Position numbers and translations under genes: made by a program
Origin: Escherichia coli
GTDB taxonomy: Bacteria; Pseudomonadota; Gammaproteobacteria; Enterobacterales; Enterobacteriaceae
DNA length: 64,000 nucleotides
Direction: 5' to 3' (one strand)
NCBI RefSeq assembly: GCF_045037415.1
Contig: NZ_CP173438.1
The notes under the pieces: model-generated
Seen by the model: only the letters and a program-made list of their open reading frames with translations
The model's database searches: none
Told to the model about the DNA's origin: nothing
Shown here: one piece after another, positions 5,688 to 52,391 of the stretch
Layout: each line of letters opens with the position of its first letter
Numbering within the stretch: the stretch's first letter is position 1

Positions 5688-8579
<2,892 letters not shown>

Positions 8580-20543: not shown

Positions 20544-21299
<756 letters not shown>

Positions 21300-41137: not shown

Positions 41138-42534
41138 CCAGCCAGAACACCCCGGCATGGCGTAACGATGACCTGGAAGGCGCTGTCATCGGTGCGTTTT
41201 TTCTGCGTGGGGCCGATCCGGAAGTGATGGATATTCTGGCCACACTTCCGGCGGATGTATTTTTTGTGCGTCAGTACCGGGATATTTACGCGGGGATTTG
41301 CAGACAGGCTCGCATATCCGGCGTCATTGACCCCGTACTGCTGTGCAATGAGATGCCGGAACTTGCCCCGGTGATTACCGACACCGGACGCAAAACCTGG
41401 GTGAAGTCTTCACTGGAGCACTATGTCGCAGCGTTGCGGCGCAATGCCGCACTGCGTGATGCAGAAAAAACACTGACTGAAGCATTACAGAATTTACGTG
41501 ATGCGTATACCTGTGAAGCAGCCGAGGATGCCCTGAAGGATGCGCAGAACATGATGGCCTCACTGTCGACCGGAAAGGGCGTCATTCAGCCGGTTCACAT
41601 TGATGATGTCCTTCCGGAAGTGGTCGACCGTGTTGAATGCCGCAATCAGGGACTGGAGAAATCCAGGGCGCTGATGACCGGTATTGATGAACTGGACGCA
41701 AAAACGGGCGGTATGGAGCCCGGAGACCTGGTATTCATTGCCGCCCGTCCTTCGATGGGGAAAACCGAACTTGCGCTGGACATCATCGACAAGGTGACTG
41801 AGCAGGGGCATGGCGTGCTTCTGTTCACCATGGAGATGGCGAACATCCAGATTGGTGAACGTATGGTGTCTGCTGCCGGTGGAATGCCGGTATCCCGTCT
41901 TAAGTCTGTTGCCCGTTTTGAAGATGAAGACTGGGCGCGTTTCTCGCAGGGCGTGGGACGAATGACGGGGCGTAATATCTGGATGGTGGACCAGGCAAAC
42001 CTGACCATTGATGAGATATGTGCAACCACGAAGCACCACCGGATGAAGCATCCGGAAACGGCGCTGGTTGTGGTCGATTACCTCGGCCTGATTAAAACCC
42101 GCAGCACGGGGCGTCACGACCTTGCTGTGGGGGAAATCTCAAAGGGACTTAAAAGCCTGGCAAAATCCGGCGGTTTTCCGCTGATTGCTCTGAGCCAGCT
42201 CTCCCGTGGCGTGGAATCCAGACCCAATAAACGCCCAATGAACTCGGACCTGAAAAACTCCGGGGAAATCGAGGCGGATGCCGACATCATTCTGATGCTT
42301 TACAGGGAGGAGGTATACAACCCGGAAACTCAGGCCAGAGGCATAGCAGAAATCAACATCACGAAACAGCGTAATGGCACGCTCGGGACCATTTACCGGC
42401 GTTTTCATAACGGACATTTTCTGCCTGTGGACCAGGAGAGTGCCCGGGTTCTTTCCACACCAATGCAACAGCCCCAGCCGCGCAGATACAGCAACAAACG
42501 AACTGACAGCAGTAAGATGGAGCGTTTCTTTTGA
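41134..42534 (+). CDS. DnaB-family replicative DNA helicase
   Basis: 466-aa ORF with Walker A ARPSMGKTELALD and DnaB-like C-terminal domain motifs (VVVDYLGLI, LSQLSRG). Confidence 0.85.
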   Translation: MTSQNTPAWRNDDLEGAVIGAFFLRGADPEVMDILATLPADVFFVRQYRDIYAGICRQARISGVIDPVLLCNEMPELAPVITDTGRKTWVKSSLEHYVAALRRNAALRDAEKTLTEALQNLRDAYTCEAAEDALKDAQNMMASLSTGKGVIQPVHIDDVLPEVVDRVECRNQGLEKSRALMTGIDELDAKTGGMEPGDLVFIAARPSMGKTELALDIIDKVTEQGHGVLLFTMEMANIQIGERMVSAAGGMPVSRLKSVARFEDEDWARFSQGVGRMTGRNIWMVDQANLTIDEICATTKHHRMKHPETALVVVDYLGLIKTRSTGRHDLAVGEISKGLKSLAKSGGFPLIALSQLSRGVESRPNKRPMNSDLKNSGEIEADADIILMLYREEVYNPETQARGIAEINITKQRNGTLGTIYRRFHNGHFLPVDQESARVLSTPMQQPQPRRYSNKRTDSSKMERFF

Positions 42535-42788
42535 ACAACCAGACAATGACTTTTACCCCTGAGCAATTACGTAAACAGGCACAGGAAATGTTGCGGCAGG
42601 CGGAACAACTGGAAAAAACAGGTGTAACAAAAGATGCCATTCGTCGGGATATGGTGCCAGCGCTCAGGGAACTGATGCAGGCAAAACACCGTGCACAAAA
42701 AGCAGTGGATGAGCTGGTGGATTGTGTGGCAGAGCTGGAAACCAGAGTTGGTAAGTTTGAAAAACTGGTGCAGGAGGTACTGCGCTGA
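42531..42788 (+). CDS. hypothetical coiled-coil protein
   Basis: 85-aa ORF, overlapping-stop packing. Confidence 0.4.
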   Translation: MNNQTMTFTPEQLRKQAQEMLRQAEQLEKTGVTKDAIRRDMVPALRELMQAKHRAQKAVDELVDCVAELETRVGKFEKLVQEVLR

Positions 42789-43156
42789 TGCGTGATATGT
42801 ACGAAGTTTTAGATCGTTGGGGGGCCTGGGCTGCAGCAGATAACAGTGGTGTGGACTGGCAGCCGATAGCAGCAGGCTTCAAGGGGCTTTTACCACACGG
42901 TAAAAAGTCACGTCTCCAGTGTGATGATGACGAAGGTATCATGATAGACGGTTGTGTGGCTCGGTTGCGAAAGTATAAACCCGAAGAGTATGAGTTGATC
43001 ATTGCTCACTTTGTTATTGGTATCTCATTACGCGCTATTGCTAAAAAACGGAAATGTTCAGATGGAACAATACGGAAAGAGATGCAAACAGCAATGGGGT
43101 TTATTGATGGCTGCTTGTCATTTTTCATTTACTACAATGACTTAAGTTCTATGTAA
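42788..43156 (+). CDS. late-gene antiterminator Q-like protein (QuuD-type)
   Basis: 122-aa ORF MRDMYEVLDRWGAWAAADNSGVDWQPIAAGFKGLLP... resembling the recalled short Q/QuuD family of E. coli prophages; sits directly before the late cargo and lysis region. Confidence 0.6.
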   Translation: MRDMYEVLDRWGAWAAADNSGVDWQPIAAGFKGLLPHGKKSRLQCDDDEGIMIDGCVARLRKYKPEEYELIIAHFVIGISLRAIAKKRKCSDGTIRKEMQTAMGFIDGCLSFFIYYNDLSSM

Positions 43157-43219
43157 AATCGTTCTACTTTCCCAACTTTTATGTGTATATAATACCAGGA
43201 TAAAGTAACGGAGAATCTT

Positions 43220-44260
43220 GTGAACATTCAGGCAGTAGACATTTTTTGTGGTGCGGGGGGCTTAACTTTTGGGCTAAAAAAAGCCGGGATTGAGGTTTCT
43301 CATGGTATTGATATTGATGAATCCTGCCGTTTTGCTATTGAGAGCAATAATCCTTTAACGCAGTTCATTAATCAGTCAGTTACAGAACTGCAATCCTGCG
43401 ATGTGTCTGCTATGTTCAAGGAAGGAAATATTAGATTGCTTGCTGGATGTGCTCCTTGCCAACCGTTTTCCAAGTATCGTAATCCAAATAGCCGTAAAGA
43501 CGATACAAAGTGGCGTTTGTTATATGAGTTTCAAAGGCTTGTAAGTGATGTCATGCCAGAGCTTGTGACGATGGAGAATGTTCCTCAACTTAGAAACCAT
43601 AAGGTTTTTGAAGGGTTTGTTAGTGCATTAAAGACTCTTGGATATCATTTGTGGTACGACGTTGTAAGATGTTCTGAGTATGGCTTACCTCAAAATAGAC
43701 GTAGATTAATTCTAATTGGTTCCCAATTGGGGCCGATCAGCCTTGATCAAAAAAAAGTTAGCCGTAAAGTTACTGTTAAGGATGCTATTGGTAGGTTGCC
43801 AAAAGTAGGGGCAGGTGAGAAGCTGGAAAGCGATCCCTTGCATCGTTCGCCTAAATTGATGGATATCAATCTTAAACGAATCATGCATTCTTTACCTGGT
43901 GGTACGTGGGATGACTGGCCTGAAGAAATTAGAGCAGACTGTCATAAAAAGAATTCAGGTGCTACCTATAAAAGCGTTTATGGACGGATGGTTTGGGACG
44001 ATACTAGCCCTACGATAACTACCCAGTGTTATGGATATGGAAATGGACGATTTGGCCATCCTGAGCAAAATCGCGCCATAACTTTGCGTGAAGCTGCGAT
44101 TTTGCAATCCTTTCCAATGGATTATAAATTCCTTGACAAGGAGACGCCTTTTTCATTCCAAAAATTGGGGACAATGATTGGAAATGCTGTTCCCCCTATA
44201 ATTGGTCAGATAATAGGGGAAACATTTATCAGACATGTTGAGGGGATAAATACCCGTTAG
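43220..44260 (+). CDS. DNA (cytosine-5)-methyltransferase, Dcm family
   Basis: 346-aa ORF, GTG start; C5-MTase motifs I FCGAGG, IV PCQPFS, VI ENV, VIII QNRRR and X GNAV are all visible. Confidence 0.85.
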   Translation: MNIQAVDIFCGAGGLTFGLKKAGIEVSHGIDIDESCRFAIESNNPLTQFINQSVTELQSCDVSAMFKEGNIRLLAGCAPCQPFSKYRNPNSRKDDTKWRLLYEFQRLVSDVMPELVTMENVPQLRNHKVFEGFVSALKTLGYHLWYDVVRCSEYGLPQNRRRLILIGSQLGPISLDQKKVSRKVTVKDAIGRLPKVGAGEKLESDPLHRSPKLMDINLKRIMHSLPGGTWDDWPEEIRADCHKKNSGATYKSVYGRMVWDDTSPTITTQCYGYGNGRFGHPEQNRAITLREAAILQSFPMDYKFLDKETPFSFQKLGTMIGNAVPPIIGQIIGETFIRHVEGINTR

Positions 44261-44918
44261 AGGTAATATAATTTTCTGTTGAGTTGATTAATAAACGCAA
44301 ATATAGATCAATTCTTTCTGACCTCGATTTGACTTCTTCTAAAGGGTCTATTTGACCTTTTTTAGAAAAGCTGGTACTTCCATGTGCCAGCTCATTTCTG
44401 ATATCTTTAAGTAAATCTAAGTCAACACCATTTCTACACTCTGGTGAGTTTGCAACAGTTATTCCGTAAGCTTGTGTTATTTTGTGCAATACAGACTTGC
44501 AAACATTACCATTGAATTCTTTACGTATGTTTAATGAGGCTGAAATGATCCTTTTAGATATATCGGAACCAATTTTTTGATAAAGAGATTTTCCCGATTC
44601 ATTATCTGAAATGATACGGTGCAAGATATTTACTTGGAATTTCTCCCTGAGTGATGCGTAATTTACTTCATTATCTTGCAAATGGTCATAAATTGACTCA
44701 ATGCATCCTCTGGCAGTGTTTTCAACCTGATTGTACAGCATCATGTGCACGGATGATTTTAAAATGTTAACCCTAAGGGTATTTGATTCTATTTCATCTT
44801 TATGCGTTTGCTGATCTAACTGCTGAGTCTGAGCCTCTAAAGATGACGCAAGAGAAAGCAATTCCATAATATCTCTTGCTCTTTCTTCGTATTCATCTCT
44901 TAAATCAATCAAACTCAT
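44229..44918 (-). CDS. HEPN-domain protein (predicted RNase/nuclease), partner of the DUF262 protein
   Basis: 229-aa ORF; C-terminal Rx4H HEPN motif (DIRNELAHG); ATG 2 nt after the stop of the upstream DUF262 gene with an AGGA Shine-Dalgarno inside that gene's 3' end. Confidence 0.65.
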   Translation of the reverse strand: MSLIDLRDEYEERARDIMELLSLASSLEAQTQQLDQQTHKDEIESNTLRVNILKSSVHMMLYNQVENTARGCIESIYDHLQDNEVNYASLREKFQVNILHRIISDNESGKSLYQKIGSDISKRIISASLNIRKEFNGNVCKSVLHKITQAYGITVANSPECRNGVDLDLLKDIRNELAHGSTSFSKKGQIDPLEEVKSRSERIDLYLRLLINSTENYITSNGYLSPQHV

Positions 44919-44920
44919 AG

Positions 44921-46078
44921 TTACATTCCTAATAATTTATCTTTGACATAAAATATTCTGTTTTTGAGTTGGCTGGTGTTGTTGGCACTATCAGCAGTAA
45001 CTATGGTTTCAAATTCCTCCCCAAACAGCCAGTCTCCTACAGGAATAACCGGAGCCTGTAGATGTGGATTGGCTTTTAAGGCAAGAGCAGTTCCCACTGC
45101 TATGGCTTCGTATCTAGCACGGGGGGTGGTTTTGCTTGTTGGTGTCTTTTTAAACCCCATAGGGAAATGAGCATCTACAAAAGCAAGCATGCTTTCAAAA
45201 TCATGTTTAAATTTGTCTACATCTTGTTGTGTGACCCTTTCGGCCTGAACATTAAGATAATTGTCAATAAAAGGAGCGACATAACCCTTATAATTTTCTA
45301 AATCATTTAAGTATGCAAAAAATCTCAAAACTAACTCACGATGATCGCCATTCGAACGTTTCCGGTCTGATAATGGAGCTAGACTAGCGAAAAGTGGATT
45401 TGTTGAGCAAGGAGTCACAACATCCCTATAGAAAATTGAAGTGGCCGCATCTGAACCATGTCTAACCTCCATCGCTTCCAGTCTCTTAACACCTGAATTT
45501 ATTCTTTCGAATAAATCTCTTCTATGTTGCTCCTCAACATCACCTTTCAATTCAATAAATCTTAGTGATGCCCTTAAAAATCGCCTCTGGCGGCTAGCCA
45601 AAAGATCTGAAAATTTGAAGCCCTCTAAACTTTTGAGTTCTTTTAAGTCTTTCAATTCAAACTGATTGTTCCAAAAGTAGTAAATTGAGCGAATCCTTTG
45701 TGAACCGTCAATAATTTCTACACGACCATCCAACTCAGGATCTTCATTAAATACGTCGGAGATGTAGAGGTACGGGATTGGAAAATCTAATAATATACTT
45801 TCGATGAATCGAGAGGCTGTTTTGATATCCCATTTGTAATCGCGTTGATAATCAGGAATAAAAAGTTCGTTTTTGTCAGTTTCAAGATTATTGCCATACT
45901 TTTGTACAATTAATTCAACGGTCCATTCACGTACGTTGTATCCAATATTTCTCTGAGCAAGCCTAATCTCGTTGTCGGCAGAAGTGACCAAGGCTGCAAT
46001 TTCAGCTTTTTTTCTATTTTTCGCGTTTTCATCTTGAATCTGAGCAAGCTCTTCTTTGAGTTCTTTGAGTGTGGTCAT
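44921..46078 (-). CDS. DUF262 (ParB/Srx-like, GmrS-N-type) domain protein without an HNH/DUF1524 domain
   Basis: 385-aa ORF; DUF262 hallmarks FIPDYQRDYKW and IIDGSQR near the N-terminus; long helical C-terminal region with no nuclease motif. Confidence 0.75.
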   Translation of the reverse strand: MTTLKELKEELAQIQDENAKNRKKAEIAALVTSADNEIRLAQRNIGYNVREWTVELIVQKYGNNLETDKNELFIPDYQRDYKWDIKTASRFIESILLDFPIPYLYISDVFNEDPELDGRVEIIDGSQRIRSIYYFWNNQFELKDLKELKSLEGFKFSDLLASRQRRFLRASLRFIELKGDVEEQHRRDLFERINSGVKRLEAMEVRHGSDAATSIFYRDVVTPCSTNPLFASLAPLSDRKRSNGDHRELVLRFFAYLNDLENYKGYVAPFIDNYLNVQAERVTQQDVDKFKHDFESMLAFVDAHFPMGFKKTPTSKTTPRARYEAIAVGTALALKANPHLQAPVIPVGDWLFGEEFETIVTADSANNTSQLKNRIFYVKDKLLGM

Positions 46079-46186
46079 ATCACTGTTCCTTTAATTGGAG
46101 TTGGAAATAGATTGTAAGAAAACTATAACGCGTACGCAAAAAATATTATATCGTGTTAAGAGTGGTTACTACGCCACACAGCTTAA

Positions 46187-46212
46187 ACCCGCCGCCAGGC
46201 GGTTTTTTGTGT
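46187..46212 (+). terminator. intrinsic terminator on the + strand (candidate late tR'-type terminator)
   Basis: cccgccgccaggcgg hairpin followed by a T6 run, between the DUF262 gene start and the next + strand ORF. Confidence 0.45.
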
Positions 46213-46331
46213 CCGAAAAACGGCGCAGTACGTTAAACGTGCTGGTGGTTGCGAATACCGGTCTTTCAGCTTGCTGGCTTTTCAGACAAGAGTTATTGGT
46301 ATGTCACGTTAACCAGAAAAGGGAAAAAGAC

Positions 46332-46529
46332 ATGCTAAAACAGCAGGATATGACCGAAACTGCCAGAGTGGTGTTTAATGAATTAAGCGTCACCGAACCG
46401 GCGACCGTCGGGGAAATTGCGCAGAATACTTACCTTTCACGCGAACGCTGCCAGCTAATACTGACCCAGCTTGTTATGGCGGGTCTGGCAGATTATCAGT
46501 TCGGTTGTTACAGACGCCTTCCGCAGTGA
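46332..46529 (+). CDS. hypothetical small protein, possible winged helix
   Basis: ORF 46095..46529; start placed at MLKQQDMTETARVVFNELSV... Confidence 0.35.
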   Translation: MLKQQDMTETARVVFNELSVTEPATVGEIAQNTYLSRERCQLILTQLVMAGLADYQFGCYRRLPQ

Positions 46530-46679
46530 AGGCTTTTTTATTTGTGGTAATGGGCGGCTGGTGGGTGTTAGCGGCACCTGCCAGCCATCTGCTCATGCGT
46601 TGGGGTCACAAGCAAACCTCAGGCCCATCTGCTTTGCGCAAAAGCGGTATGAGCCTATCAGAGAAGTGCTTATTGATCT

Positions 46680-47420
46680 ATGGCTAATACTGTAAAAATA
46701 TCCAGTTGTGAGTTAATCAACGCCGACTGCCTGGAATTTATCCGGTCGTTACCCGAAAATTCTGTTGACCTGATAGTCACGGACCCGCCGTACTTTAAAG
46801 TGAAGCCTGAGGGCTGGGATAACCAGTGGAAGGGCGACGATGATTACCTGAAGTGGCTGGACCAGTGTCTGGCGCAGTTCTGGCGGGTGCTGAAACCTGC
46901 CGGAAGTCTTTACCTGTTCTGTGGTCATCGCCTGGCATCTGATATCGAAATCATGATGCGTGAACGCTTCAGTGTGCTGAACCATATTATCTGGGCGAAG
47001 CCGTCCGGACGCTGGAACGGATGCAACAAGGAAAGCCTGCGGGCGTATTTCCCCGCCACAGAGCGCATTCTGTTCGCGGAACATTATCAGGGGCCGTATC
47101 GTCCGAAAGATGCCGGGTATACGGCGAAGGGCAGTACGGCTGTGTCGGACAGGGCTTACATATTGCCAAAAAACTGCTTCCGTATATCCCTAATAACGCG
47201 GGGATCCTGCTGGTACCATGCTGTCGTGGTGGTTCGGCATTCACCCAGGGCACGGAGGGGACATTCAGCGAGTCCACGGGGGCCAGTCAGGATTCGGCTC
47301 GCTGGGGAGTGGGTAAGCCGTTATATCAGGATCTGCTTTTCCGCACGAAGGCAGCATTGCAGAAAAACCCGAAAAACGTTTTGCTGGCGATATGCTGGAT
47401 GCAGGGGGAATTCGATATGA
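46680..47420 (+). pseudogene. N6-adenine/N4-cytosine-type DNA methyltransferase, N-terminal fragment only (frame lost after about 140 codons)
   Basis: Motif IV TDPPYF and ...LNHIIWAKP... are present, but no motif I follows; the frame degenerates into low-complexity sequence while the overlapping frame becomes NanS-like. Confidence 0.45.
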
Positions 47421-50646: not shown

Positions 50647-51269
50647 GTTTTGCTGATGCGCGGTATTGTCGCCGTATCCCCGCATTAACAGAGACCGCAG
50701 CCCGACAGGGAGACTCCTCTGCGCGAGTGTGCGGGGATAATCAAAAACGATACACACCGGGGTTTACCGCGTTAACGGAGCGCGGCGTTGTCCCCTCATA
50801 GTCGCCTGTCCGGTGCGATGGTGGAAGAAGCCGGATGTTTATCACTATTAATTGATGACACAGAAATGGATTCATTGAATTTCAGCACGTTTTTGTATTC
50901 GTGTTATTGAACATCTGTTTATTTTACTTTTAACATATTGATAATAAAAAGAGCTGTAAATCTTTAGATGAGTCGATTTTGTCCGGGGAAGTTCAAATGG
51001 ATTTTATGCTGACGGTTTCTGGTGTGGTTATCCTGTCCATTGCTTATACTGCAGATAAATATGGCTGCCATTTGTTATCACGTATTGGCGCTTATTGTTC
51101 GTTGATGCTGATTTTCTCGTCGCTTTTTTTTGAGTAAGTTATATTAATTATAACAAATAATTTTCTGTGTTATTTTTTCAGGCTATCCCGTCAGAGGGGA
51201 AGCCTGTACTGCCAGGGAGCGAATGGAAAACTGATGTGTCCGGTAACTGCGTGTTCTGTGAACACCATG

Positions 51270-51455
51270 TTACTTAATTATGTAATTCATACCCGAACTC
51301 TCTGTTGACAGCCTTCTTCTGCAGGCTTCAATAACCCACGCTGAAAAGTTTCCTGAACCTTTCAGATCAAGAGCGATGTTAATTTGTTCAATCATCTGGT
51401 TTGGAAATCGGATGTTGCGGGTTGTTGTTCTGCGCGTTCTGTTCTTTGATGACAT
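51270..51455 (-). CDS. small Arc/ribbon-helix-helix-like DNA-binding protein
   Basis: 61-aa ORF; ...NIRFPNQMIEQINIALDLKG..NFSAWVIEACRRRL resembles the RHH pattern; lies in the lambda-like right-end region. Confidence 0.4.
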   Translation of the reverse strand: MSSKNRTRRTTTRNIRFPNQMIEQINIALDLKGSGNFSAWVIEACRRRLSTESSGMNYIIK

Positions 51456-51661
51456 AATGTTTCCCCATATTCAGTGTTGCTGATTTGTATTATCAGAAGT
51501 TGCTTTTACGTTAATTTGACGCAGATCAATTAATACGATACCTGCGTCATAATTGATTATTTCTCGTGGTTTGATGGCGTACACACATGTTGTGATAAAC
51601 CTTATATAGATGATAATCATTATCATTTCGTGGGTCCTTTCCGGCGATCCGACCGGTTACG

Positions 51662-51673
51662 GGGCGGCGACCT
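51662..51673 (+). other. cosN cohesive-end site (lambda-type 12-nt gggcggcgacct)
   Basis: Exact lambda cosN 12-mer, flanked upstream by ...gggtcctttccggcgatccgaccggttacg and downstream by cgcgggttttcgctatttatgaaaattt, both recalled lambda right-end and left-end sequences. Confidence 0.75.
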
Positions 51674-51842
51674 CGCGGGTTTTCGCTATTTATGAAAATT
51701 TTTAGGGAAAAATCAGATCCGTTCTTCTTCTTTTTAACTGATTGATTATCAATAGAATTTTAAAAATATAAAAGGATCTGACAAAGGCTGTTTTTGTTAG
51801 AAAACGCCATTTTCAGATCCTTTCTGGTTCCCGGGGGAGTGT

Positions 51843-52391
51843 ATGAACGTCAATAAGAAAAAACTGGCCGATATTTTTGGCGTTGATGTCAGGACCATCA
51901 CCGCCTGGCAGAGTCAGGGGTTACCACTAGTTTCTGGTGGAGGGAAAGGGACTGAATCAGTTTTTGATACAACTGCTGCCATTCAGTGGTATGCGCAGAG
52001 GGAAGCTGATATTGAAAACGAAAAACTCCGTAAAGAGATCGAGGATTTGAGGGCTGCCAGCGAATCAGACCTTCAGCCCGGCACCATTGATTACGAACGT
52101 TACCGACTGACGAAGGCACAGGCCGATGCACAGGAGCTGAAAAATGCTCGTGAGGAAGGCCTTGTCCTCGAGACGGAGTTATTTACCTACATCTTTCAGC
52201 GAGTGGCACAGAATATATCAGGGATCCTTGTCCGTGTCCCTCAGACACTGCAGCGTAAATACCCTGATATATCACCCGTACATCTTGATGCTGTGAAAAC
52301 TGAAATCGCGAAAGCATCCGATGTGGCTTCTGAAGCCGGTGAGAATGTGCGCAGGTGGATTGATGATTTCAGACGAACTGAGGGCGGCTAA
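51843..52391 (+). CDS. nu1: terminase small subunit Nu1
   Basis: 182-aa [39 protein letters not shown]... closely resembles lambda Nu1. Confidence 0.88.

What the first reader, a model, noticed from the sequence alone, without database searches (positions are those of the whole stretch)
43157..46215. AT-rich cargo island with its own promoter-like element after Q and a + strand intrinsic terminator at its far edge
Immediately after the Q-like gene there is a promoter-like sequence (ttctac...tatgtgtatataat) about 25 bp upstream of the MTase GTG. At the other edge (46187-46212) a GC hairpin followed by T6 is oriented for + strand termination, just before the next + strand ORF. The three genes between look compositionally distinct (AT-rich) by eye. 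This could be a self-contained moron inserted between Q and the late-promoter/terminator region; the hairpin at 46187-46212 could be the Q-controlled tR'-type terminator.
Basis: inference. Interest (0 to 1): 0.4.

Follow-up and report, generated by a model that had tools for sequence, protein, structure and literature searches.

The report
Defence cassette between Q and late promoter
A 3-kb AT-rich three-gene module (a DNA cytosine methylase plus a DUF262 sensor and a HEPN nuclease) sits in an E. coli lambdoid prophage between the late-gene activator Q and Q's own promoter-terminator site, a gap where related prophages carry many other anti-phage genes; it is a tidy example of a known kind, not a new one.

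Summary
GC is 0.38 for 43111-46110 against 0.48-0.51 in the flanks. The hairpin plus T6 at 46189-46208 is real. TATAAT is at 43188-43193.

- The island is about 43111 to about 46110. Its left junction lies inside Q, so Q's last 15 codons are cassette DNA.
- The hairpin is not part of the island. It belongs to a conserved backbone module (46119-46208) homologous to the annotated pR'/qut/terminator of phage 933W and present in K-12 DLP12.
- In that module a dyad (GCGTACGC, 46130-37) matches the class of the Q helix-turn-helix in all 102 loci examined. A TAnnnT -10 (46149-54) is fixed, and the terminator follows about 48 nt later.
- Related prophages have Q directly abutting this module. Others hold one of at least 33 other cargoes there, mostly on the minus strand, including Kiwa.
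- The TATAAT has no usable -35 and is no more frequent than chance, but its intergenic region is the best-conserved part of the cassette.

The three genes travel and diverge as a unit, in lambdoid prophages of six Enterobacterales genera and in a Tn7-like element. This fits a methylation-keyed, restriction-modification-like defence system related to PD-T4-2. That mechanism is inferred, not shown.

The parts
42788..43156 (+). Antiterminator Q (122 aa), small Q21/QuuD-type. Codons from 43111 onward (the last 15) are cassette DNA.
   Evidence: phrog_79 Q-like, 4.9e-49. Weak match to Q21 chains 6P18/6JNX, E=0.0012. Weak ECF sigma region-4 hits, as expected for Q21 (10.1101/651190). Homology to other Q alleles ends at 43104-43110.
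43111..46110 (.). The AT-rich cargo cassette (about 3.0 kb).
   Evidence: GC 0.382 against 0.48/0.51 in the flanks. Junctions were mapped against the empty site L042 and other cargoes. The right edge is only known to within about 46105-46120.
43157..43219 (+). Intergenic region upstream of the methylase, with TATAAT (43188-93) and a Shine-Dalgarno GGAG. Candidate methylase promoter and 5' UTR.
   Evidence: 96.8% identical between two cassette variants that are 84-90% identical elsewhere. TATATAATACCAGGA...GGAGAATCTTGTG is also kept in S. bongori, where no Q gene adjoins the methylase. Not called by the promoter scan; TATAAT count equals chance.
43220..44260 (+). C5-cytosine DNA methyltransferase (346 aa, GTG start).
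   Evidence: TIGR00675 dcm, 6e-35, above its cut-off. PADLOC MTase_II 1.6e-87. Motifs FCGAGG, PCQ, ENV, QNRRR and GNAVPP can be read in the translation.
44229..44918 (-). HEPN-like nuclease, MAE_28990 family (229 aa). Its 3' end overlaps the methylase by 32 bp.
   Evidence: Pfam PF18737 4.6e-16 and PF18735 8.7e-08. The Rx4H motif RNELAH is in the translation. RefSeq names it a MAE_28990/MAE_18760 family HEPN-like nuclease.
44921..46078 (-). DUF262 / ParB-like NTPase protein (385 aa), first gene of the minus-strand pair. Its stop lies 2 nt before the HEPN start codon.
   Evidence: Pfam GmrSD_N 3.6e-25. PADLOC NsnA 5.6e-46 and PD-T4-2_A 4.3e-27. Motifs QRDYKW, DGSQR and FERIN are present (motif definitions from PMC12065111).
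46111..46139 (-). Candidate promoter of the DUF262-HEPN pair. On the minus strand: TTGCGT (46139-34), 17 bp, TACAAT (46116-11).
   Evidence: Read from the sequence. The same TTGCGT-N17-TACAAT is kept in the L005 variant and in S. bongori. It scores 8 of 12 and is below the scan threshold. The -35 lies in the dyad that matches the Q class. Inference only.
46119..46154 (+). Late promoter pR' with the presumed Q-binding dyad: A-tract, dyad GCGTACGC (46130-37), -10 TATCGT (46149-54). Inferred start near A46161.
   Evidence: Aligns base for base with the 933W annotated pR' (TTTACG-N16-TATCAT), with the same dyad centre. TAnnnT occurs at this offset in 56 of 59 unique sequences. The dyad class matches the Q HTH class in all 102 loci. 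The start site is inferred from the Sakai dRNA-seq/Term-seq distance of 258 nt (PMC7547250).
46155..46188 (+). Nearly invariant leader, GTTAAGAGTGGTTACTACGCCACACAGCTTAAAC. It covers the position annotated 'qut' in 933W.
   Evidence: It forms a small 5' hairpin in the predicted about 48-nt RNA.
46189..46208 (+). Intrinsic terminator (tR'-type): the first terminator after pR'.
   Evidence: Homologous to the 933W 'possible rho-independent terminator' at 20726-20748.
46332..46529 (+). First ORF of the late transcription unit (65 aa, phrog_331), followed by a second terminator-like hairpin at 46516-46533 plus a T-run.
   Evidence: Present directly after the pR' module in the empty-site phage PPyecE_EH1910 and in phiP27.

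Best explanation
The window carries an E. coli lambdoid prophage; matching records include O25b:H4-ST131 strains. In this phage type, Q is normally followed at once by its target, a compact module made of the late promoter pR', a dyad that Q presumably binds, a short leader and a terminator.

Here a 3.0-kb AT-rich cassette (about 43111 to about 46110) has been recombined into the gap. It replaces Q's last 15 codons and pushes the pR'/terminator module (46119-46208) 3 kb downstream. RNA polymerase starting near 46161 should stop there after about 48 nt unless it has been modified by Q.

The cassette is one mobile unit of three intact genes: a C5-cytosine methylase on the + strand, convergent with and overlapping a minus-strand pair encoding a DUF262 (ParB-like NTPase) protein and a HEPN nuclease.

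Most likely mechanism (inferred): a restriction-modification-like defence system. The methylase marks resident DNA. The DUF262 protein reads the DNA modification state. The HEPN nuclease is the effector that stops an infecting phage.

Expression (inferred): the methylase has its own conserved promoter region and is also read through from Q. The sensor/effector pair is transcribed divergently from the pR' region, and early rightward transcription through Q runs antisense to it.

Shown: boundaries, composition, homology of the pR'/terminator module, the match between Q class and dyad class, and conservation of the triad. Inferred: promoter activities, the start site, and the defence mechanism, including which modification state is sensed.
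For: Insertion:
- Empty sites exist with the same Q class (L042), and in 27 of 102 loci the Q stop lies 21-46 bp from the module.
- At least 33 other cargo classes occupy the same gap; the window's gap of 2998 bp is among the largest.
- K-12 DLP12 has the same layout, with nmpC as cargo.
- Composition shift.

pR'/tR' module:
- Homology to the 933W annotated pR', qut and terminator.
- The Sakai pR' start and the 258-nt transcript fit the aligned -10 (PMC7547250).
- The dyad class matches the Q helix-turn-helix class without exception in 102 loci, and also in Yersinia and Serratia.
- TAnnnT at a fixed offset in 56 of 59 unique sequences.
- Hairpin plus T-run in 62 of 66 variants, with compensatory stem changes.

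Cassette as a unit:
- Same three genes in the same convergent overlapping order in S. bongori, Klebsiella, Serratia, Kosakonia and Yersinia prophages, and in a Pseudoalteromonas Tn7-like element.
- The three proteins diverge in step: methylase 94/80/67/53%, HEPN 91/69/59/41%, DUF262 90/82/71/57%.
- The cassette is also found in a different E. coli prophage backbone.

Gene identities and intact motifs.

Literature:
- PD-T4-2, listed among systems with DUF262 and with HEPN PF18735 domains, protects against T4 (PMC9519451, PMC10952713).

Methylase promoter region: 96.8% conserved against 84-90% elsewhere, and retained in S. bongori, where no Q gene adjoins the methylase.
Against: - No transcript data exist for this prophage. 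The start site is transferred from Sakai Stx phages.
- In those phages the accumulating pR' RNA is 258 nt long and ends at a second terminator. The homologous first hairpin may therefore terminate only partially there (PMC7547250).
- I could not identify a sigma-dependent pause element in the leader.
- The -35 position of this pR' (AACGCG/TAACGC) is poor.
- The methylase -10 has no -35 and TATAAT is at chance frequency.
- Characterised DUF262 proteins (GmrSD, BrxU, SspE) sense modified DNA, and HEPN domains are usually RNases. A simple 'cut unmethylated DNA' model is therefore unlikely as such.
- The PADLOC PD-T4-2_B model does not match the HEPN protein.
- No defence phenotype has been tested for this cassette.
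Confidence: 0.72

Rival explanations
1. The methylase and the DUF262-HEPN pair are functionally independent neighbours. The methylase would be an orphan, phage-protective (anti-restriction) enzyme. The pair would be a PD-T4-2-like or type IV-like system triggered by modified foreign DNA such as T-even hmC.
For: Characterised DUF262 sensors recognise modified DNA. PD-T4-2, listed among systems with DUF262 and HEPN domains, protects against T4; whether it includes a methylase was not established here (PMC9519451, PMC10952713, PMC12065111). Lambdoid phages often carry orphan methylases; one, now broken, lies 400 bp downstream.
Against: All eight contexts sampled keep the methylase, convergent and overlapping, down to 41% HEPN identity and outside prophages. 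The three proteins diverge in step. The family-level association was already noted in PMC3710099.
Confidence: 0.22
2. The TATAAT after Q is the late promoter pR' itself. The methylase would be the first late gene, and the hairpin at 46189 would be tR' lying 3 kb downstream of pR'.
For: In textbook lambdoid phages pR' directly follows Q. A perfect -10 lies 32 bp after the Q stop. No + strand terminator separates Q from the methylase.
Against: The element that tracks the Q allele and is homologous to the 933W pR'/qut lies at 46119-46188, not after Q. The TATAAT region travels with the cassette in S. bongori, where no Q gene adjoins the methylase. A late transcript from about 43200 would have to cross 1.8 kb of antisense coding sequence.
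Confidence: 0.04
3. The region is ancestral phage DNA rather than acquired cargo, and its AT-richness simply reflects lambdoid mosaicism.
For: The cassette is always linked to the same Q class in prophages of several genera. The association is therefore old, and it spreads with its flanks by recombination rather than by its own mobility genes.
Against: Empty sites exist with the same Q class, and many alternative cargoes occupy the identical position. The same triad occurs in a Tn7-like element. GC3 is 0.30-0.35 against 0.53-0.63. The Q tail is out of frame between cassette variants.
Confidence: 0.04

Closest known systems
pR'-qut-tR' late regulatory module of phages 933W / H-19B and prophage DLP12 (QuuD)
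   Same: Homologous sequence: dyad at the -35/spacer, a TAnnnT -10, the leader (G)TAAGAGTGGTTAC..GCCAC and a CCCGCC...GCGGG-T7 hairpin. Same position between Q and the lysis genes.
   Different: The dyad here is GCGTACGC, against TTTACGATCGTAAA in 933W and TTTACGTACGTAAA in DLP12, matching a different Q recognition helix. The module is separated from Q by 3 kb. 933W also has a second terminator 258 nt from the start, which ends StxS (PMC7547250). Here the next terminator-like site follows the 65-aa ORF.
Cargo between Q and the lysis genes in classical lambdoid elements (nmpC in DLP12)
   Same: A minus-strand, AT-rich accessory gene lies between Q and the same pR' block.
   Different: The cargo here is a three-gene nucleic-acid-targeting module rather than a porin.
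PD-T4-2 (Vassallo et al. 2022)
   Same: Both combine a DUF262 protein with a HEPN-domain protein, PF18735 in both (PMC10952713). Both come from the E. coli accessory genome.
   Different: The PD-T4-2_A model matches only moderately (93 bits) and the PD-T4-2_B model not at all. This cassette has an obligatorily linked m5C methylase. Its activity is untested.
MAE_28990 HEPN / ParB / DNA methylase operons (Anantharaman et al. 2013)
   Same: Exactly this three-component association was predicted by comparative genomics (PMC3710099). All three components are present and intact here.
   Different: That work gives no mechanism or experiment. Here the genes are convergent rather than in a single operon, and the cassette is embedded in a prophage regulatory gap.
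Menshen (NsnABC), GmrSD/BrxU and SspABCD-SspE
   Same: They share a DUF262 NTPase with QRxxxW, DGxQR and FxxxN motifs followed by a C-terminal domain; the best PADLOC hit is NsnA. SspE shows that a DUF262 sensor can be keyed to a modification made by partner genes (PMC10952713).
   Different: This cassette has no NsnB ATPase or NsnC, no DUF1524 HNH nuclease, and no phosphorothioation genes. Its effector is a separate HEPN protein.
phi80 Tai 'non-contiguous operon' (PMC11364771)
   Same: An immune gene lies antisense to a Q-controlled or early phage transcript, which that paper proposes as a way to switch the defence off during the phage's own lytic cycle.
   Different: In phi80 the gene sits inside the late operon. 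Here the cargo lies upstream of pR' and would be crossed by early transcription coming through Q. This is untested.

Membership tests
Lambdoid Q-dependent late regulatory cassette | A Q antiterminator gene | tested here: met
   phrog_79 4.9e-49. Q21 PDB chains E=0.0012. Q genes flanking cassette homologues in other genera carry PF06530.
Lambdoid Q-dependent late regulatory cassette | pR' immediately downstream of Q | tested here: not met
   In the window the module is 2998 bp from the Q stop. It is 21-46 bp away in 27 empty-site loci.
Lambdoid Q-dependent late regulatory cassette | A Q-binding element specific to the Q allele | tested here: met
   The dyad class matches the Q HTH class in 102 of 102 loci and in two further genera. 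Binding itself was not tested.
Lambdoid Q-dependent late regulatory cassette | A sigma-dependent pause element in the early transcribed region | tested here: inconclusive
   No convincing -10-like hexamer lies downstream of the inferred start. AAGAGT (46158-63) overlaps the start.
Lambdoid Q-dependent late regulatory cassette | An intrinsic terminator between pR' and the late genes | tested here: met
   46189-46208. Holin, lysozyme and Rz genes lie downstream.
Moron (Juhala/Hendrix sense) | Lies between genes or sites that are adjacent in related phages | tested here: met
   Empty sites L003 and L042, plus 25 others.
Moron (Juhala/Hendrix sense) | Base composition distinct from the phage backbone | tested here: met
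Moron (Juhala/Hendrix sense) | Its own promoter | tested here: inconclusive
   Conserved candidates exist on both strands. None passes the consensus scan.
Moron (Juhala/Hendrix sense) | Its own terminator | tested here: not met
   The two units converge and overlap by 32 bp with no convincing terminator between them. The hairpin at 46189 belongs to the backbone.
PD-T4-2 | DUF262 component (PD-T4-2_A) | tested here: met
   PADLOC PD-T4-2_A 4.3e-27, although NsnA scores higher.
PD-T4-2 | HEPN component (PD-T4-2_B) | tested here: not met
   No PD-T4-2_B hit even at E<=10. Only the shared Pfam PF18735 domain matches.
PD-T4-2 | Protection against T4 | not testable with these tools
   Needs a plaque assay.
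Menshen (NsnABC) | NsnA, a DUF262 protein | tested here: met
   5.6e-46.
Menshen (NsnABC) | NsnB ABC ATPase and NsnC effector adjacent | tested here: not met
   The only other cassette genes are HEPN and the methylase.
GmrSD type IV restriction | DUF1524 HNH nuclease domain fused or adjacent | tested here: not met
   Pfam finds only GmrSD_N.
Type II restriction-modification | A methyltransferase with complete catalytic motifs | tested here: met
Type II restriction-modification | A cognate restriction endonuclease of a known fold | tested here: not met
   The partners are DUF262 and HEPN.
MAE_28990 HEPN-ParB-methylase triad (PMC3710099) | MAE_28990-family HEPN with Rx4-6H, next to a ParB/DUF262 gene and a DNA methylase gene | tested here: met
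   PF18737 4.6e-16, RNELAH motif, and neighbours as required. The triad is kept in all eight contexts sampled (window); a second E. coli prophage backbone also carries it.

The most novel reading that the evidence does not exclude
The triad is an uncharacterised methylation-keyed immune system. A ParB-like NTPase reads m5C status and licenses a HEPN RNase, making it a restriction-modification/abortive-infection hybrid. Its expression is wired into the lambdoid switch in two ways. The -35 of the sensor/effector promoter lies inside Q's binding dyad. Early transcription through Q is sense for the methylase but antisense for the effector pair. The prophage would then raise protection and silence its own weapon when it goes lytic. 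More broadly, the gap between Q and pR' would be a dedicated, orientation-biased defence hotspot of QuuD/933W-type lambdoid phages.
Probability: 0.2. Interest if true: 0.65.

Novelty: new member of a known kind. Interest (0 to 1): 0.42.

Why it matters
This locates the late promoter, the presumed Q-binding site and the first late terminator of a prophage found in many clinical E. coli genomes, including O25b:H4-ST131 strains.

It shows that the short gap between Q and pR' is a recurrent landing site for anti-phage genes. That is useful for annotating prophages and for mining new defence systems: most two-gene cargoes seen there match nothing known.

It also gives a clean natural example of the DUF262 + HEPN + m5C methylase triad, which was predicted in 2013. 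I found no experimental test of it in the papers read. The module is compact (3 kb) and can be cloned with and without its methylase.

Tried and rejected
- Rfam scan of 42500-47000 at E<=1 found nothing. The short pR' leader is not a curated RNA family, and StxS of the Sakai phages is a different, longer RNA.
- The consensus promoter scan found fewer sites than shuffles (5 against 10.2) and none at the proposed promoter.
- A chimeric Q+module query returned no place covering at least 80% of the query in 5,426 E. coli genomes. The pattern scan of IMG/VR was what found empty sites.
- Full-text search for the invariant leader sequence returned only chance matches.
- Searches for a mapped essD/quuD promoter in K-12 found nothing usable.
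- The ST131 methylome paper does not cover this methylase; strain EC958 has only Dcm and M2.EcoMI as m5C enzymes.
- The Q21 structure paper gives the QBE and promoter sequences only in figures, so pR'21 could not be compared.
- I looked for a sigma-dependent pause element by eye and by offset statistics and could not assign one.
- A 'TCCCAA' -35 for the methylase was rejected because its spacing differs by 4 bp between E. coli and S. bongori.
- Structure prediction was not used. Domain assignments were already unambiguous.


Full report
**What is at the coordinates**

The region contains the following:
- A small antiterminator Q gene, 42788-43156 (+).
- A C5-cytosine DNA methyltransferase, 43220-44260 (+, GTG start).
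- A HEPN-like protein, 44229-44918 (-).
- A DUF262 protein, 44921-46078 (-).
- About 250 bp of non-coding DNA holding the hairpin, then a 65-aa ORF at 46332-46529 (+).
- Broken remains of an N6-adenine methylase fused to a DUF6645 (phrog_143) gene fragment, then holin, lysozyme and Rz genes.

The DNA is 100% identical to prophages in many E. coli genomes, including O25b:H4-ST131 strains. 104 of 5,426 complete genomes hold at least 80% of 42500-47000.

**Checking the observation**

- Composition: GC falls from 0.50-0.56 to 0.34-0.43 across the three genes. The cassette is 0.382, against 0.481 and 0.513 in the flanking 10 kb. GC3 is 0.30-0.35, against 0.53-0.63 for backbone genes.
- Hairpin: it is called by the terminator scan. 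The stem is CCGCC/GGCGG, the loop is GCCA, the tail is T6, and it spans 46189-46208.
- TATAAT: it lies at 43188-93, 26 bp before the GTG. The proposed -35 is 20 bp away. The scan does not call the site, and it finds fewer promoter-like sites than in shuffles (5 against 10.2). Exact TATAAT occurs 5 times in the cassette against 5.0 expected.
- Strand: two of the three genes are on the minus strand and converge on the methylase with a 32-bp overlap. The island cannot be one operon driven by that element.

**Is it an insertion, and where are its edges?**

Related phages answer this directly.
- In PPyecE_EH1910 the Q stop is followed within 38 bp by the sequence that in the window starts near 46132.
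- phiP27 has a + strand GIY-YIG gene in the gap. Stx1 phages have three minus-strand genes there. Another E. coli prophage has two.
- In 102 loci with a recognisable Q upstream, the distance from the Q stop to the conserved block ranges from 21-46 bp (27 loci, 'empty') up to 3011 bp. The window's 2998 bp is among the largest.
- L042 is an empty site with the window's own Q class. There Q ends ...GFIDGCICLILS*, 17 bp before the block.
- Alignment places the window's left junction at 43110/43111, inside Q. The last 15 codons of Q are cassette DNA. In the diverged cassette variant a 1-bp indel puts that tail in another frame (...CLSFFYLIQ*), so it is not a conserved part of Q.
- The right junction lies about 46105-46120.

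**The hairpin belongs to the late promoter module, not to the island**

Right of every cargo lies the same block. It consists of an A-run, a short dyad, about 11 variable bases, then the nearly invariant GTTAAGAGTGGTTACTWCGCCACA..CTTAAA, a GC hairpin and a T-run. I found it in more than 1,600 E. coli genomes, in 358 phage records, and in E. coli K-12 between nmpC and essD of prophage DLP12.

In the 933W GenBank record the homologous 80 bp are annotated as follows:
- 'pR'; putative late promoter': TTTACG-N16-TATCAT.
- 'qut'.
- 'possible rho-independent terminator'.

Aligned base for base, the window's equivalents are:
- The -35 position at 46127-32.
- The dyad GCGTACGC at 46130-37, with the same centre as 933W's TTTACGATCGTAAA.
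- The -10 TATCGT at 46149-54.
- The hairpin at 46189-46208.

Sy et al. mapped the pR' start in the Sakai Stx phages 258 nt upstream of the tR' 3' end (PMC7547250). Counting back 258 nt from the second 933W terminator gives a start 7 nt after TATCAT. I assume here that 933W and Sakai Sp5 are alike in this stretch. That position corresponds to A46161 in the window.

Three internal tests support the assignment.
1. The dyad class matches the class of Q's helix-turn-helix region in all 102 loci:
   - ISLRxIAKKRKCSDGTIRK with TAACGCGTACGC.
   - ISKRKLAKxRKKDEKLIR with GCGGTCCGC.
   - ARKHGCSD..IGKRLQ with TTTACGATCG or TTTACGTACG.
   - LGVKLGISLNQVV with TGTTATAACA.
   - The phiP27 Q with GGAATTCC.
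   - The same pairing holds in Yersinia and Serratia prophages.
2. A TAnnnT hexamer sits at exactly one offset in 56 of 59 unique upstream sequences, and no other offset exceeds 39%.
3. A hairpin followed by at least four T lies 47-52 nt after the block start in 62 of 66 downstream variants (two variants with a different hairpin have it at 58 nt). Loops vary. Stems show compensatory or wobble changes (CCCGT/ACGGG, CCTGC/GCGGG), and two variants have a wholly different hairpin.

The predicted about 48-nt RNA folds into a 5' hairpin plus the terminator at -18 kcal/mol, z = -2.3.

Caveats:
- I could not identify the sigma-dependent pause element.
- The -35 position is poor in this Q class.
- In Sakai the RNA that accumulates ends at the second terminator, so the first hairpin may be leaky there.

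**What the cargo is**

- Methylase: it passes the NCBIfam dcm cut-off and carries all the classical motifs.
- The 385-aa protein: it has the GmrSD_N/DUF262 domain with the QRxxxW, DGxQR and FxxxN motifs. Its best PADLOC match is Menshen NsnA (5.6e-46), then PD-T4-2_A (4.3e-27).
- The 229-aa protein: it is a MAE_28990-family HEPN (PF18737 4.6e-16; PF18735 8.7e-08) with an RNELAH motif.
- Absent: an NsnB or NsnC homologue, a DUF1524 nuclease, and any match to the PD-T4-2_B model.

The three genes behave as one unit.
- The same order and the same convergent 3' overlap occur in prophages of Salmonella bongori, Klebsiella quasipneumoniae, Serratia marcescens, Kosakonia cowanii and Yersinia mollaretii. 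They also occur in a Tn7-like element of Pseudoalteromonas.
- Identities to the window fall in parallel: methylase 94/80/67/53%, HEPN 91/69/59/41%, DUF262 90/82/71/57%.
- In Klebsiella, Serratia, Kosakonia and Yersinia the cassette lies between a PF06530 Q gene and the holin, the same site as in the window.
- In E. coli it occurs in at least two different prophage backbones and with different downstream sequences.
- There is no integrase or transposase. Spread is best explained by recombination in the conserved flanks, namely the 3' part of Q and the invariant leader.
- Anantharaman et al. [quoted passage not shown]
- PD-T4-2, listed among systems with DUF262 and HEPN domains, protects E. coli against T4 (PMC9519451, PMC10952713).

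**How it most likely works (inference)**

The obligatory, convergent methylase points to a restriction-modification-like logic in which m5C marks self. Known DUF262 proteins are NTPase sensors of DNA modification state (GmrSD, BrxU, SspE; PMC10952713, PMC12065111). HEPN domains are usually RNases.

My preferred model is therefore a sensor (DUF262) that reads whether DNA carries the cassette's mark and then licenses the HEPN effector. I cannot tell whether it fires on unmarked foreign DNA or, as with SspE, needs the self mark as a cofactor. The main rival, an orphan methylase next to an independent PD-T4-2-like pair, is weakened by the triad's conservation but is not excluded.

**Expression**

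- The Q-methylase intergenic region is the best-conserved part of the cassette: 96.8% against 84-90% between the two E. coli variants, 2 differences where about 7.6 are expected. Its TATATAATACCAGGA...GGAGAATCTTGTG core is also kept in S. bongori, where no Q gene adjoins the methylase. A methylase promoter and 5' UTR is therefore plausible despite the missing -35.
- No terminator separates Q from the methylase. Early transcription through Q should also express the methylase and then run antisense into the HEPN and DUF262 genes.
- On the minus strand, TTGCGT-N17-TACAAT (46139-46111) precedes the DUF262 gene. It is kept in the diverged variant and in S. bongori. Its -35 lies in the presumed Q-binding dyad.
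- A comparable antisense arrangement was proposed to silence the Tai defence gene of phi80 during lytic growth (PMC11364771).
- None of this has been tested here.

**The wider pattern**

Among the 102 loci I counted 33 distinct cargo classes longer than 300 bp, with GC 0.31-0.41 in most. Of their genes, 44 are on the minus strand and 9 on the plus strand.

Of 20 representative cargo proteins, 7 match PADLOC models:
- Kiwa KwaB (2.3e-150), with a membrane partner.
- PDC-S20 (KAP NTPase).
- PDC-S33 (RelA/SpoT-like).
- PDC-M53A.
- PDC-M68A (HNH).
- An OLD/Gabija-like ATPase next to another m5C methylase.

The rest, mostly pairs of a soluble protein with a membrane protein, match nothing. In the papers I could search I found no description of this gap as a defence hotspot. 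That is not proof that none exists.

**Verdict**

The thing itself is a new member of known kinds: a prophage-borne defence cassette of a predicted but uncharacterised triad family, sitting in a recurrent cargo slot upstream of a well-known type of late promoter. Interest is moderate.

Noticed in passing
window 46119-46154, and loci L001-L135: The short dyad at the -35/spacer of pR' falls into discrete classes (GCGTACGC, GCGGTCCGC, TTTACGATCGTAAA, TGTTATAACA, GGAATTCC, TGTAATTACA, TTCGTTACGAA). Each class pairs with one class of Q helix-turn-helix sequence, without exception in 102 loci. The sites are palindromic, whereas the Q21 binding element is described as a direct repeat (10.1101/651190).
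   Followed up: partly
gap between the Q stop and the pR' block in L004-L126 (window equivalent 43157-46118): The Q-to-pR' gap holds at least 33 different AT-rich cargo classes. Genes are 44:9 in favour of the strand opposite to Q. The cargoes include Kiwa, PDC-S20, PDC-S33, PDC-M53, PDC-M68 and an ATPase+methylase pair, plus many unassigned soluble+membrane gene pairs. It looks like a defence hotspot.
   Followed up: partly
window 46111-46139 (minus strand) and the same position in other cargo-bearing loci: In the GCGTACGC class, the minus-strand reading TTGCGT of the dyad is followed after 16-18 bp by a TAnnnT-like hexamer in nearly every independent cargo context examined by eye. Cargo genes may therefore be transcribed from a promoter whose -35 is Q's binding site.
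   Followed up: partly
window 47124-47134: Relative to phage PPyecE_EH1910, about 3.1 kb is deleted. The deletion joins the 5' part of an N6-adenine methylase gene to the 3' part of a DUF6645 (phrog_143) gene, annotated yjhS (9-O-acetyl-N-acetylneuraminic acid deacetylase) in that phage, across an 11-bp overlap of the two alignments. RefSeq marks both as pseudogenes.
   Followed up: partly
L079 (IMG/VR contig), block +27 onward: One contig has the pR' leader but lacks the terminator hairpin: the leader runs straight into the sequence that normally follows the terminator. This would be a natural tR' deletion if it is not an assembly error.
   Followed up: no
L004 (Stx1a phage Stx1_14040), about 6860-7300: This Stx1 phage has the QuuD-type pR' block with its first hairpin. 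About 230 bp further on lies the GCCAGCCTCCCCCAGTGGCTGGC-T terminator that ends StxS in the Sakai phages, so the leader is a mosaic of two module types.
   Followed up: no
window 50800-51800: A second AT-rich stretch (GC 0.36-0.43) lies between the Rz-like gene and the next long + strand ORF (51843-52391). It has almost no ORF of 60 aa or more.
   Followed up: no
L128 (Pseudoalteromonas, Logan SRR17607628): The same DUF262-HEPN-methylase triad is cargo of a Tn7-like element (TnsC/TniQ-TnsD/TnsE next to it). The triad therefore moves between quite different mobile elements.
   Followed up: no
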